DNA of 64,000 nucleotides, taken from NCBI RefSeq assembly GCF_009914755.1, contig NC_060928.1. One strand, written 5' to 3'. The stretch is from the human T2T-CHM13v2.0 reference genome, Homo sapiens. The translations under genes and the position numbers were made by a program. Below, in pieces: positions 150 to 3,728 of this stretch (within the stretch, counting starts at the first letter, position 1; each line of letters begins with the position of its first letter). Under the pieces are notes generated by a model that saw nothing but the letters and a program-made list of their open reading frames with translations, did not search any database and was not told the origin of the DNA.

Positions 150-438
150 CCTTTCCAGCTGAGGAGAGACTACCTTTCTTAGGGACTAGCCAATTCTCAG
201 AGATAACAAGGGGCCAACCAGGAGCATGTCTTTGATATACAAACTAATCAATCCAGAGCCATACCTCCTCTATCTGGCCCTTACACACATGTAAGCAATT
301 ATTTGTCTGCCTTAATCATCCCAGGGCCAAGTGCTATGCAACTAGGGGACAACCTCTACAATTTGAAATCCATTGAAATTATTCAAACTAGCCAATCCTA
401 AGCTGTTCACCCTGCCCTGCCTCTTCTTTCCCATGGAG
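150..438 (+). mobile_element. ERVL-class LTR (MER74-like), 5' half
   Basis: ccagggcca...caactagggga...gaaattattcaaactagccaatcctaa...caccctgcc resembles the recalled MER74-group consensus; ends abruptly at cccatggag. Confidence 0.6.
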
Positions 439-444
439 GTTAAC

Positions 445-572
445 ATATACATCCCTGGCCTTGAGTGAAATGAAATGACCCAGGCCACAAGCGCATGACC
501 AGTGGGACTGGAGGGTTCCTTGGTGCATTTGTCACCAAGGCCCGAATCTGGCTCTCTTAACAGAAAGGCAAT
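445..572 (+). repeat. Diverged inverted copy of the ~110-bp segment at 3710-3818
   Basis: ccttgagtg...ccagtgggactggagggttcc...gaatctggctctcttaacagaaaggcaat aligns to the reverse complement of 3710-3818 (ccttgagcg...ccagtgggaccggagggttcc...gaatcctgctcgcttaacaggaaggcaat). Confidence 0.85.
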
Positions 573-645
573 TGACACCCATGGGCTCACTTAGCAAAAC
601 AGCTGCTTCTAATGGGGATTGCAGACTTAAAGAAACTGAGATGCA

Positions 646-932
646 GCCGGGCACAGTGGCTCATGCCTGTAATCCCAACACTTTGGGAAGCCAAGGCGGG
701 CGGATCACCTGAGGTTGGGAGGTCGAGACCAGCCTGACCAACATGGAGAAATCCCATCTCTACTAAAAATATAAAATTAGCCAGGCGTGGCGGCATATGC
801 CTGTAATCCCAGCTACTCGGGAGGCTGAGGCAGGAGAATGGCATGAACCTGGGAGGTGGAGGTTGCAGTGAGCTGAGATTGTGCCATTGCACTCCAGCCT
901 GGGCAACAAGAGGGAAACTCCATCTCAAAAAA
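646..932 (+). mobile_element. Alu, AluSp-like
   Basis: Full dimer with cctgaccaacatggagaa; TSD aagaaactgagatgca / aagaaactaagattca. Confidence 0.95.
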
Positions 933-1024
933 GAAACTAAGATTCATGAGCTGTGGACCAGGGAGCAGTGCAGGGAGTAGTAGCAAACCCTGTAAAAAAA
1001 AAAAATCTTAAATCACCCTTTCTT

Positions 1025-1148
1025 GTGCCCCTTTTAAGGTTGACACAGTGCATTAAGCAGAAGGGTTAAGTAAGTCTCCATAAAACCCAGAGAAGAGAAT
1101 GTAAAGCTCCTCTTTGGAGGAGCTAGACTCCTGTCTGGAGTCACAGCT
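1025..1148 (+). ncRNA. SNORA26-like H/ACA snoRNA paralog, probably a pseudogene
   Basis: gtgccccttttaaggttgac...aagtaagtctccataaaacccagagaagaga...cctgtctggagtcacagct matches recalled SNORA26 (HBI-6); H box AGAGAA 1089-1094; ACA 1143-1145, 3 nt from the end; no poly(A) tail or TSD. Confidence 0.85.
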
Positions 1149-1740
1149 GAACAAATTCCTTACAGTTTAAGCACATTTGTGATATTTTTGCATATCACAT
1201 ATGATGCATTCAAACTTAACCTTAGCTTTGACAGTGCATAAAAACCAAGTGTTGGTATTTGACACTGTAAGCAGTAATGGCCCAGCAGAATAGTATAGAC
1301 TGCTTTCACCTGAGAACATCTGAAGACTGGCTGACTCTGGTCATAATGCCTCCCAGAACCAGATTTCAATGGGTACGGACATTTGAACTGTTACCTACTT
1401 AGGCCATGGAATGTCTCAAGTTACTCAAACTCACCCGCAAAGGCCTTGCGTCACTTGCGTTCCTCCTGATCTCGAAGGCAGGTGTGCACACTTAGCAGCT
1501 GGCTGTTGCTACCAATGGATTCCCAGTTGTGCTGCCTTTGCCTAACCTCTACATGCTCTCCCAGGCATAACCACAGAAACCTTCACTGAGATATTGAAAT
1601 TAGCATTAACCACCCCACACACCTGTTTTTATTTACTCAGTTTTGACAAGCCTTTCCGTGTATATTGCTGTGAAAACAATGAGATAGCTGTAGGTATTCT
1701 AGGACAACTTTCTTCCTCTCAGGTAAGTTGCATAGCATAT

Positions 1741-2054
1741 TTTTTTTTCTTTTTTTTCCTTAGAAACAGGGTCTCACTCTGTTGCCCAAGCTGGAATGCA
1801 GTGGTGCAAGCATGGCTCACTGCAGCATCGAACACCTGGGCTCAAGAGATCCTCCCACCTCAGTCTCCCCTGTAGCTGGGACTACAGGCATGCACCACCA
1901 TACCTGGCTTCCTTTTTTAAAAAAAATTATTTTTAATAGGGACAAGGTCTGGCCATGTTGCCCAGGGTGGTCTCAAACTTCTAAGCTCAAGTGATCCTCT
2001 CATCTTGGCATCCCAAAGTGCTAGTATTATAGGTGTGAGCCACCATGCCCGGCC
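1741..2054 (-). mobile_element. AluJ-like, inserted in pol
   Basis: Reverse Alu dimer; TSD catagcatat at 1731-1740 and 2056-2065. Confidence 0.95.
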
Positions 2055-2408
2055 TCATAGCATATTTTTCATGTCAGTTGGATCCCGTGGTATCAGGCAT
2101 GCTCCTATGCCTATGTAGTGACCTCAGCTGCCATCCTAATTGACAAAGCCATTAACCTTACAATAGGTTCTCTTATTTACCTTTGTTTCCCATTCTGTGT
2201 CAACTCTTACAGTTCCATAAAAGAGTGCCTTTCTACTTGACAGACCAACCCCTCCTCATCTTGCAACTCTGTAATGCTCTAAACCTGTACCTCTCCCTGA
2301 TGGAGAACCCCACTCCACATCACATGATTGCCTTACAGTCACAGAGTTGGCTTCTAAACCACAAGAAGACCTCTTAAGATACTCCTTGAGCCATCCACAC
2401 TTACTCTG

Positions 2409-2682
2409 GGCCGGGTGTGGTGGCTCACACCTGTAATCCCAGCACTTTGGGAGGCCGAGGTAGGGCAGATCACCTGACGTCAGGAGTTTGAGACCAGCCT
2501 GGCCAACATGGTGAAATCCCATCTCTACTAAAAAATACAAAAATTAGCCAGCGTGGTGGCTTGTGCATGTCTTCCCAGCTACTCGGGGGATCACTTGAAC
2601 CCAGGAGGTGGAGGTTGCAGTGAGCCGAGATGGCAGCCTGGGCAACAGAGCGAGGCTCTGTCTTAAACAAACAAACAAAAAC
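2409..2682 (+). mobile_element. AluS-like with small deletions, inserted in pol
   Basis: TSD acttactct at 2399-2407 and 2685-2693. Confidence 0.95.
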
Positions 2683-2855
2683 AGACTTACTCTATCCTGT
2701 GACAACTCTTATAAACAAAATTCTCAGAAAGATAATAACCAGCTATGACATAGTGAGCTTGTACACTGGTGAAAGAGAAAACGTACACTACTTACACTGA
2801 CTAGGTATACCCTGGGACTCTGCCATGTCCTTGGCAGTTTGGAAACCCCATAGAT

Positions 2856-3186
2856 GATGATGATGATGATTTGAGACGGAATTCTTCTTATTATTATTAT
2901 TAATTGAGATGGAATCTCACTCTGTTGCTCGGGCTGGAGTGCAGTGGTGCGATCTCCGCTCACCACAACCTCTACATCCCAGGTTCAAGCAATTCTCCTG
3001 CCTCAGCCTCCCGGCTAGCTGGAATTACAGGCATGCACCACCACGCCTGGCTAATTTTTGAATTTTTAGTAGAGATGGGGTTTCACCATGTTGGCCAGGT
3101 AGGTCTCGAACTCCTGACCTCAGGCAATCCGCCCACCTCGGCCTCCCAAAGTGATGGGATCACCGGAGTGAGCCACTGCGCCCTAC
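2856..3186 (-). mobile_element. AluSx-like, inserted in pol
   Basis: TSD ccccatagat at 2846-2855 and 3189-3198; (GAT)n/(TAT)n tail. Confidence 0.95.
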
Positions 3187-3544
3187 CCCCCCATAGATTC
3201 TCGACCTCAGCATATACTCCCATCACCAATGGGCATATAATTGTTATCCTATTACAGTCTATTTATTTTCCTACATAAATTATTATTGTTCATTGCGCAA
3301 CACTTAGGAAACTGATAGAGTATCTTTATGGAATTGTAGGGCTGAGAAAGCTGCTAAATGGGCAGGCAAAAATGGACTCCCTGTCTCTCCTCCACCCAGC
3401 TTGCGACCCTCCTCTTATCTCTGACTCACGTTCATTGTCGGGCAAATGCCCCACAACCTAAAACAGACATGGCTACCAAAGGGGGCCAAGCAGTTATGCG
3501 ATGGATTAGACATGGGACCAAATGGACTTCTTTGGCCACTGTGC

Positions 3545-3715
3545 TCACAAAGGGGAGACATAGGAGAAGCTCAGGAAAAAATAAAGCGTTATACTCACAA
3601 GTCCTAAAGACAGGAACCATGCCAACCATACAGGGCCACATGGGAAAGACACCAGGATGGTCAACAGGCAGAAGATCATCGTGAGGGAAAGGTTCAGAGC
3701 ACAGCCTCTATTGCC
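3545..3715 (-). mobile_element. ERVL-class LTR (MER74-like), 3' half
   Basis: Minus strand reads caatagaggct...tgaccatcctggtgtctttcccatgtggccctgtatgg...gtgagtataa, the recalled continuation of the half at 150-438. Confidence 0.6.
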
Positions 3716-3728
3716 TTCCTGTTAAGCG

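What the first reader, a model, noticed from the sequence alone, without database searches (positions are those of the whole stretch)
438..3717. Reconstructable ~3.3-kb inversion with a split LTR and an inverted breakpoint duplication
The LTR half at 150-438 is on + and its continuation at 3545-3715 is on -. The ~110 bp after the exon-2 donor (3818-3710, -) recurs inverted at 445-572. The snoRNA and pol are on + while the exons are on -. Flipping ~440-3715 rejoins the LTR and puts exon 2, snoRNA and pol in one orientation, leaving a duplication as expected from staggered breaks. Inference: the inversion moved the DANCR-type terminal-exon acceptor (candidates ttccttacag 1165, aaccttag 1225) off the sense strand, which may have let exon 2 splice on to env.
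Basis: partly seen in the sequence, partly recalled or inferred. Interest (0 to 1): 0.85.

Follow-up and report, generated by a model that had tools for sequence, protein, structure and literature searches.

The report
Ancient inversion upstream of HEMO env
A 3.3-kb stretch between the promoter and the coding exon of the human retroviral envelope gene HEMO was flipped long ago, inside a partial copy of the neighbouring DANCR gene; the flip is real, but nothing yet shows that it changed how the gene works.

Summary
Window 144-438 (+) and 3713-3540 (-) are the two halves of one ~540-bp LTR. In 10 of 11 other genomic copies the halves are adjacent, and only about 5 nt are missing at the break. 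The ~110 nt after the exon-2 donor (3818-3707, -) recur inverted at 454-575, E 4.5e-11.

Two independent markers agree:
- ERVMER34-1's promoter, exon 1, a mir-4449-like hairpin, exon 2 and the SNORA26 copy are a partial paralogue of DANCR. They match DANCR's order only if 439-3713 is flipped.
- In 5 of 5 other MER34-int copies, the pol sequence that lies on + here and the integrase sequence that lies on - here sit on one strand.

This is an old, fixed inversion with an inverted breakpoint duplication. The duplicate arms differ by K2P 0.30.

The splicing inference is not supported. The AG at 1165 aligns to a non-AG site in DANCR, and DANCR homology fades between 1189 and 1230. Shown consequences are a junction-born alternative exon (3599-3718) and a SNORA26 copy that now lies antisense. 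No outgroup genome could be searched.

The parts
144..438 (+). LTR half a. Its first ~40 nt lie outside the window at about -217..-182, before an Alu whose target-site duplication is AAACCTTTCCAGCTGAGG.
   Evidence: 74-79% identical to 11 of 11 stored family copies. Alu target-site duplication.
439..575 (+). D': inverted duplicate of the first ~110 nt of the DANCR-like intron 2. It keeps an ~18-nt stretch that D has lost.
   Evidence: BLAST limits are 454-575; the start at 439 is read by eye.
576..1025 (+). Rest of the DANCR-like intron 2, split by an Alu at 646-931 with a target-site duplication at 631-645 and 932-946.
   Evidence: Alignment to L009 1363-1564 and 1550 onwards.
1026..1148 (+). 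Degenerate SNORA26 copy, now antisense to ERVMER34-1.
   Evidence: Rfam 77.9 bits, against 151.4 bits for DANCR's own copy.
1149..1325 (+). End of DANCR homology (solid to 1189, weak to 1230), followed by a stretch with no other copy in the genome.
1326..3539 (+). MER34-int pol remnant (RT thumb/connection to the RNase H / integrase N-terminal region), interrupted by Alus at about 1741-2054, 2408-2690 and 2885-3190.
3540..3713 (-). LTR half b. It lacks about 34 nt of the family's 3' end.
3599..3718 (-). RefSeq alternative exon that begins 5 nt before the D/LTR-b junction. The acceptor AG at 3720-3719 lies in D and the donor GT at 3598-3597 lies in LTR-b.
   Evidence: Hub gene table, plus the sequence.
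3707..3818 (-). D: start of the DANCR-like intron 2, directly after the exon-2 donor.
3819..4416 (-). DANCR-like promoter CpG island, exon 1 (4232-4314), mir-4449-like hairpin (4036-4101) and exon 2 (3819-3958).
   Evidence: 76.3% over 712 columns to L009 784-1489; 85% over the 447-nt core; Rfam; GC 0.68 and CpG o/e 0.76 over 3819-4714.
4413..4714 (-). D'' (4413-4510), a later direct copy of D, plus a second DANCR-promoter-like block (4523-4714).

Best explanation
This is an old, fixed inversion of about 3.27 kb (window 439-3713) in the first long intron of ERVMER34-1 (HEMO).

Inferred arrangement before the flip, read on the minus strand: DANCR-like promoter, exon 1, mir-4449 hairpin, exon 2, intron with the SNORA26 copy, MER34 pol (RT thumb to RNase H), a foreign ~540-bp LTR inserted in pol, integrase, env.

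One break fell in the LTR and lost about 5 nt. The other was a pair of nicks about 110 nt apart at the start of the DANCR-like intron 2. Those 110 nt now stand at both ends of the inverted piece in opposite orientation (D at 3707-3818 and D' at 439-575).

The order and orientation of every marker are shown here. The break-and-fill-in mechanism, the date, and the view that the flip was selectively neutral are inferred. Two consequences are shown: the SNORA26 copy now lies antisense to its only annotated host transcript, and a new alternative exon (3599-3718) starts at the D/LTR-b junction.
For: - LTR halves are adjacent in 10 of 11 family copies, with no overlap in family coordinates.
- D and D' align at E 4.5e-11, and both align to the same DANCR stretch, L009 1363-1489.
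- Window 4362->3711 (-) equals L009 784-1489. Window 454->1189 (+) equals L009 1363-1814. Together they follow DANCR's order TSS, MIR4449, exon 2, SNORA26 only after a flip.
- All 5 other MER34-int copies found carry, on one strand, the homologues of window 1326-3540 (+) and of window -261..-1443 (-). In the 4 of 5 that could be measured, the two parts lie 29-48 nt apart.
- MLVIN_C lies on the minus strand upstream of env at E 1.2e-5, and env matches TLV_coat.
- tblastn hits are collinear: RT on + and integrase on -.
- D and D' differ by K2P 0.30 over 101 columns, so the event is old and is neither an assembly error nor a polymorphism.
Against: - No un-inverted orthologue could be examined, because no eukaryotic outgroup genome is in the collections.
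- The LTR copy lacks about 34 nt of its 3' end and MER34-int lacks 29-48 nt at the same spot, so no target-site duplication proves a simple LTR insertion.
- The first ~15 nt of D' (439-453) align poorly.
- A third copy, D'', shows that this block has been copied more than once here.
- Pfam found no pol domain in the + frames. Apart from one tblastn hit at E 1.4e-4, the protein-level pol hits are individually weak at E 0.06-0.5.
Confidence: 0.9

Rival explanations
1. The product is the same but the mechanism differs. A replication-based template switch (MMBIR/FoSTeS type) made the inversion and the 110-nt duplication in one step. It may have happened in the same event that copied the 1.2-kb DANCR piece next to pol.
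For: - CAAT follows AAGG both at the D/LTR-b junction and in D' (568-571), which may be a 4-nt microhomology.
- In the D block, the branch to DANCR carries no more unique changes (6) than those to D (8) or D' (12). There is thus no sign of a long interval between the DANCR duplication and the D/D' split.
- A 136-nt stretch of unknown origin lies at the DANCR/pol junction.
Against: Four nucleotides of microhomology can arise by chance. The branch counts are tiny. DANCR and D also lie next to used splice donors and may simply evolve more slowly.
Confidence: 0.25
2. Recombination between inverted repeats that already existed. A copy of D had earlier been inserted, inverted, into the LTR. Exchange between D and D' then flipped what lay between them.
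For: The block has been copied at least once more (D'' at 4413-4510). Inverted repeats are a common cause of inversions (general knowledge, recalled).
Against: This needs an extra, unusual event that drops exactly this 110-nt piece into the LTR. It gains nothing over one event that explains both junctions. D'' shares an ~18-nt deletion with D that D' lacks, so D'' is a later copy and not a sign of early mobility.
Confidence: 0.05
3. There was no inversion. Two separate DANCR fragments, two separate LTR fragments and two separate MER34 fragments landed here in opposite orientations, or the assembly is wrong.
For: None found.
Against: Three unrelated markers (LTR, DANCR copy, MER34-int) all break at the same two points and all become collinear with one flip. 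The arms differ by 24-30%, which excludes a recent assembly fold-back. RefSeq exons fit the present sequence (hub table).
Confidence: 0.01

Closest known systems
Inversions with inverted duplications at the breakpoints
   Same: A stretch that is single-copy in the reference arrangement (here DANCR as proxy) stands at both ends of the inverted segment in opposite orientation. The second breakpoint is nearly clean.
   Different: This one is very small (3.3 kb), very old (arms at K2P 0.30), lies inside one gene's intron, and can be checked with three independent collinearity markers. No ancestral allele is at hand.
Published description of the HEMO / ERVMER34-1 locus
   Same: [quoted passage not shown] PMC10604696 (passages) dates entry to 100-120 million years ago. 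I recall, without having seen it here, that the 2017 PNAS paper notes degenerate pol in the opposite orientation.
   Different: PMC8978518 does not contain the words DANCR or SNORA26. No paper in the seven searches links the promoter to DANCR or reconstructs the inversion. The primary paper (PMC5559007) is not held, so it may contain more than I could see.
DANCR (SNHG13), host gene of MIR4449 and SNORA26
   Same: Same order of promoter, exon 1, mir-4449 hairpin, exon 2 and SNORA26, with GT/AG sites at aligned positions. Identity is 76% overall and 85% over the 447-nt core. The review PMC7591992 (one passage) places MIR4449 in intron 1 and SNORA26 in intron 2.
   Different: The copy is partial (L009 577-1814) with no detectable exon 3. 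The snoRNA copy is degenerate and on the other strand. The copy is fused to a provirus.

Membership tests
Inversion with inverted breakpoint duplication | Markers inside the segment have the opposite orientation to markers on both sides and become collinear after one flip. | tested here: met
   LTR, DANCR copy, and MER34-int in 5 of 5 other copies.
Inversion with inverted breakpoint duplication | A stretch that is single in the un-inverted reference is present twice, inverted, at opposite ends. | tested here: met
   D at 3707-3818 and D' at 439/454-575 both equal L009 1363-1489, which is single in DANCR.
Inversion with inverted breakpoint duplication | The ancestral, un-inverted arrangement is seen in an outgroup or an allele. 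| not testable with these tools
   The genome collections hold prokaryotes and viruses. Only this human assembly could be searched.
Partial paralogue of DANCR | Significant DNA homology covering the promoter, both hosted RNA genes and the splice sites in DANCR's order. | tested here: met
   DANCR is the only strong match in the genome. DANCR's order is met only after the flip.
Partial paralogue of DANCR | The terminal exon 3 and its acceptor are present. | tested here: not met
   No homology beyond L009 ~1814-1854. My placement of DANCR's acceptor near L009 1890 is inferred from the reported 855-nt length and the AATAAA at L009 2514.
MER34 provirus | pol (RT, integrase) and env of gammaretroviral type in proviral order. 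| tested here: met
   TLV_coat and MLVIN_C on the minus strand. RT on the plus strand. Proviral order is restored only by the flip.
MER34 provirus | A flanking 5' LTR, gag and protease. | tested here: not met
   No gag or RT N-terminal hit better than E 0.4 in window 1-12000. The split LTR family has no other copy in the 74 kb examined.
Inversion by recombination between pre-existing inverted repeats | The repeats pre-date the inversion. | not testable with these tools
   This needs outgroup genomes. It is less parsimonious here (see the rival explanations).

The most novel reading that the evidence does not exclude
HEMO's 'cellular CpG-island promoter' and its two leader exons are a duplicated 5' part of the neighbouring snoRNA/miRNA host gene DANCR. 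The duplication and the inversion were steps, perhaps one complex event, that turned a decaying provirus into a host-driven env gene. On this reading HEMO's expression in stem cells and tumours would be inherited from a DANCR-type promoter. The flip would have cut the copy's snoRNA-host intron and downstream splice signals out of the sense strand.
Probability: 0.25. Interest if true: 0.65.

Novelty: new member of a known kind. Interest (0 to 1): 0.45.

Why it matters
HEMO is the oldest intact retroviral envelope gene in the human genome, a placental and stem-cell protein and a tumour antigen under study. How it kept being expressed after losing its LTR has been described only as 'a cellular CpG island'.

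The sequence shows where that promoter came from: a partial copy of DANCR, 34 kb away. It also shows that the locus was then rearranged by a clean, fully reconstructable micro-inversion. This gives dated, testable steps for the birth of a co-opted viral gene. It explains the stray SNORA26 copy, the unannotated mir-4449-like hairpin and an alternative exon.

The inversion itself is an ordinary kind of event, and no effect on env expression is shown.

Tried and rejected
- Pfam on X-read + frames of 1190-3545 gave no pol domain.
- phmmer of 2057-2408 against PDB sequences found nothing relevant.
- A terminator-removal idea was tested. In 440-3715 the AATAAA/ATTAAA counts are 1 on + and 2 on -, plus 1 more on - inside an Alu, so there is no asymmetry.
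- A search for the LTR's target-site duplication was inconclusive, because the LTR's 3' end and the adjoining pol are trimmed.
- I tried to tie the split LTR to the provirus's own LTR, but found no second copy in the 74 kb examined. I cannot name the LTR family, because no repeat library is at hand.
- The search for the rest of the provirus (gag, protease, RT N-terminus) in window 1-12000 and the 10 kb before it found nothing better than E 0.4.
- Window 1185-1330 has no other copy in the genome.
- The primary HEMO paper could not be read.
- The genome search with 3400-3720 failed twice because the machine was busy and was dropped, since one search had already answered the question.
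Full report
**What is there.** The window starts 1.5 kb upstream of the env reading frame of ERVMER34-1 (HEMO), which lies on the minus strand just outside the window. That frame is L010 6718-8463, or window -3282..-1537, and matches TLV_coat. The finding concerns the gene's long intron and its two leader exons (3819-3958 and 4232-4314, minus strand, from the hub table).

**The two LTR pieces.**
- A whole-genome search with window 150-438 gave 39 non-self matches at 73-80% identity out of 417 first-look candidates. 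This is an old, abundant repeat.
- Eleven copies were stored (L012-L022). In 10 of the 11 (all but L014), the homologue of 144-437 is followed directly by the homologue of the reverse complement of 3713-3540.
- The copies share ends and measure about 535-560 bp. On the 544-nt copy in L013 the two halves cover positions 42-321 and 333-508.
- At the break the family reads ..CCCATGGA AACCC CAATAAAGG... The window ends one half at ..CCCATGGAG (438) and starts the other at CAATAGAGG.. (3713 downwards), so about 5 nt are missing.
- The element's first ~40 nt lie before the window, separated from 144 by an Alu with a clear target-site duplication.
- The copy lacks about 34 nt of the family's 3' end at 3540.
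- I cannot name the family, because no repeat library is available. No second copy exists in the 74 kb examined, so it is not visibly the provirus's own LTR.

**The inverted duplicate.**
- Self-BLAST of 1-6500 aligns 454-575 with 3811-3707 on the other strand: 69.7% over 122 columns, E 4.5e-11.
- A four-way alignment with DANCR shows that both are copies of the start of DANCR's intron 2.
- The copy next to exon 2 (D) has lost about 18 nt that the far copy (D') and DANCR keep.
- A third, direct copy (D'', 4413-4510, 90% identical to D) shares that deletion, so it is a later copy of D.

**The DANCR paralogue.** DANCR was fetched from 34 kb upstream (L009).
- Window 4362->3711 on the minus strand aligns to L009 784-1489 (543 of 712 columns, 76.3%). 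This begins at DANCR's annotated start and runs through MIR4449 and the next exon into the following intron.
- The 447-nt core is 85% identical, and DANCR is the only strong match in the genome.
- The GT and AG sites of ERVMER34-1 exons 1 and 2 sit at positions aligned to GT and AG in DANCR.
- Rfam finds a mir-4449-like hairpin at 4101-4036 on the minus strand (67.8 bits against a gathering score of 71; DANCR's own scores 76.1). It also finds SNORA26 at 1026-1148 on the plus strand (77.9 bits; DANCR's own scores 151.4).
- Window 454-645 and 932-1189, both on the plus strand, align to L009 1363-1564 and 1550-1814. They are split by an Alu with a 15-nt target-site duplication.
- The copy therefore covers L009 577-1814. 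Its two parts overlap by the D block and lie on opposite strands.
- A review states that MIR4449 and SNORA26 lie in DANCR's introns 1 and 2 (PMC7591992, one passage). The copy matches that order only if 439-3713 is flipped.

**The provirus.**
- The minus strand upstream of env carries an MLV-type integrase C-terminal domain (E 1.2e-5).
- On the plus strand of the window, Pfam sees nothing. phmmer finds MLV/XMRV reverse transcriptase residues 315-394 at E 0.2.
- tblastn with natural open frames of another endogenous provirus (L029) places RT residues 299-474 at 1327-1836 (E 1.4e-4). Weaker collinear hits lie at 2054-2113 and 3198-3302 on plus, and integrase hits lie at -482..-695 and -1158..-1259 on minus.
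- The decisive test used DNA. A genome search with 3190-3540 found five other MER34-int copies.
- In 5 of those 5, the homologues of window 1326-3540 (plus) and of window -261..-1443 (minus) lie on one strand, one after the other.
- In the 4 that could be measured, the two parts are 29-48 nt apart. The fifth has an Alu at that spot.
- The ancestral pol is therefore continuous across the place where the LTR sits. In this locus it is continuous only after the flip.

**Reconstruction.** Three unrelated markers break at the same two points, about 438/439 and about 3710/3713, and one flip restores all three. The inferred earlier order, read on the minus strand, is:
1. DANCR-like promoter
2. exon 1
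3. mir-4449 hairpin
4. exon 2
5. D, the rest of the intron, and SNORA26
6. about 136 nt of unknown origin, which has no other copy in the genome
7. pol from the RT thumb onward
8. the foreign LTR, antisense
9. integrase
10. env

Gag, protease and the RT N-terminus were not found within 12 kb. The published statement that HEMO lost its 5' LTR and uses a cellular CpG island (PMC8978518, passages) can thus be made specific: the island is a DANCR copy.

**Mechanism and age (inferred).**
- A nearly clean break in the LTR, together with a 110-nt stretch present at both ends in opposite orientation, is the signature of an inversion made by staggered breaks with fill-in (a model I recall from work on Drosophila inversions).
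- A replicative template switch would leave the same product. The CAAT shared by the D/LTR-b junction and D' may be a microhomology.
- D and D' differ by K2P 0.30 over 101 columns. D differs from DANCR by 0.21, and D' from DANCR by 0.31.
- Unique changes number 8 (D), 12 (D') and 6 (DANCR). This shows no long interval between the DANCR duplication and the D/D' split, but the numbers are small.
- At usual mammalian neutral rates (recalled), K2P 0.30 means many tens of millions of years. I cannot date the event more closely without other genomes.

**Consequences.**
- Shown: the SNORA26 copy now lies antisense to the only annotated transcript that crosses it.
- Shown: the RefSeq alternative exon 3599-3718 begins 5 nt before the D/LTR-b junction. 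Its AG (3720-3719) lies in D and its GT (3598-3597) lies in LTR-b (and hub table). That exon could not exist before the flip.
  - The AG at 1165 aligns to a non-AG site in DANCR.
  - Homology fades by 1189-1230.
  - Window 1190-1420 is no more similar to DANCR's downstream 750 nt than shuffled sequence; 179 of 300 shuffles score at least as well.
  - Poly(A) hexamers show no strand bias.

**What is known.** Seven literature searches found no paper that links HEMO's promoter to DANCR or describes the inversion. The papers holding both gene names that I opened (PMC7591992) or saw listed treat the two only as neighbours. The primary HEMO paper is not held. I recall that it mentions pol remnants in the opposite orientation, so the bare fact of opposite strands is probably in print. 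Its supplements could bear on this and were not seen.

**Verdict.** The functional inference is unsupported. The event is a tidy example of a known kind of rearrangement. Its interest lies in the origin story of HEMO's promoter rather than in the inversion itself.

Noticed in passing
window 4036-4101 (-): A mir-4449-like hairpin lies in ERVMER34-1 intron 1, at 67.8 bits (gathering score 71; DANCR's own scores 76.1). It folds at -48.2 kcal/mol, z -2.3. It is not in the hub's gene table.
   Followed up: partly
window 4413-4714 (-): There is a third copy of the exon-2-end/donor/intron-start block (D'', 90% identical to 3729-3826), with its own donor-like GT at 4502-4501. It lies between two DANCR-promoter-like blocks (4523-4714 and 4280-4416). 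This looks like a later local duplication that could offer an alternative first exon.
   Followed up: partly
window 4331-4394: A 32-bp GC-rich unit is repeated twice in tandem at 97% identity, just upstream of the annotated transcription start. A degenerate third copy lies at 4514-4545.
   Followed up: no
window 1185-1330: A 136-nt stretch between the end of DANCR homology and the start of MER34-int homology has no other copy in the genome. Its origin is unknown.
   Followed up: partly
window 3530-3545 and L010 9771-9783: At the LTR's 3' side, about 34 nt of the LTR and 29-48 nt of MER34-int are missing together. This is a small deletion at the old insertion site, so no target-site duplication is left.
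   Followed up: partly
window 3856-4312 (+): The first exon of the predicted lncRNA LOC107986281 is antisense to ERVMER34-1 exons 1-2 and the hairpin. The DANCR-like CpG island (GC 0.68, CpG o/e 0.76) may therefore fire in both directions.
   Followed up: no
G000 C9:95672006-95672139, C15:53367652-53367776, C2:241919957-241920089: These are weak matches (74-78%) to parts of the DANCR-like block around the hairpin and exon 2. I did not look at them.
   Followed up: no
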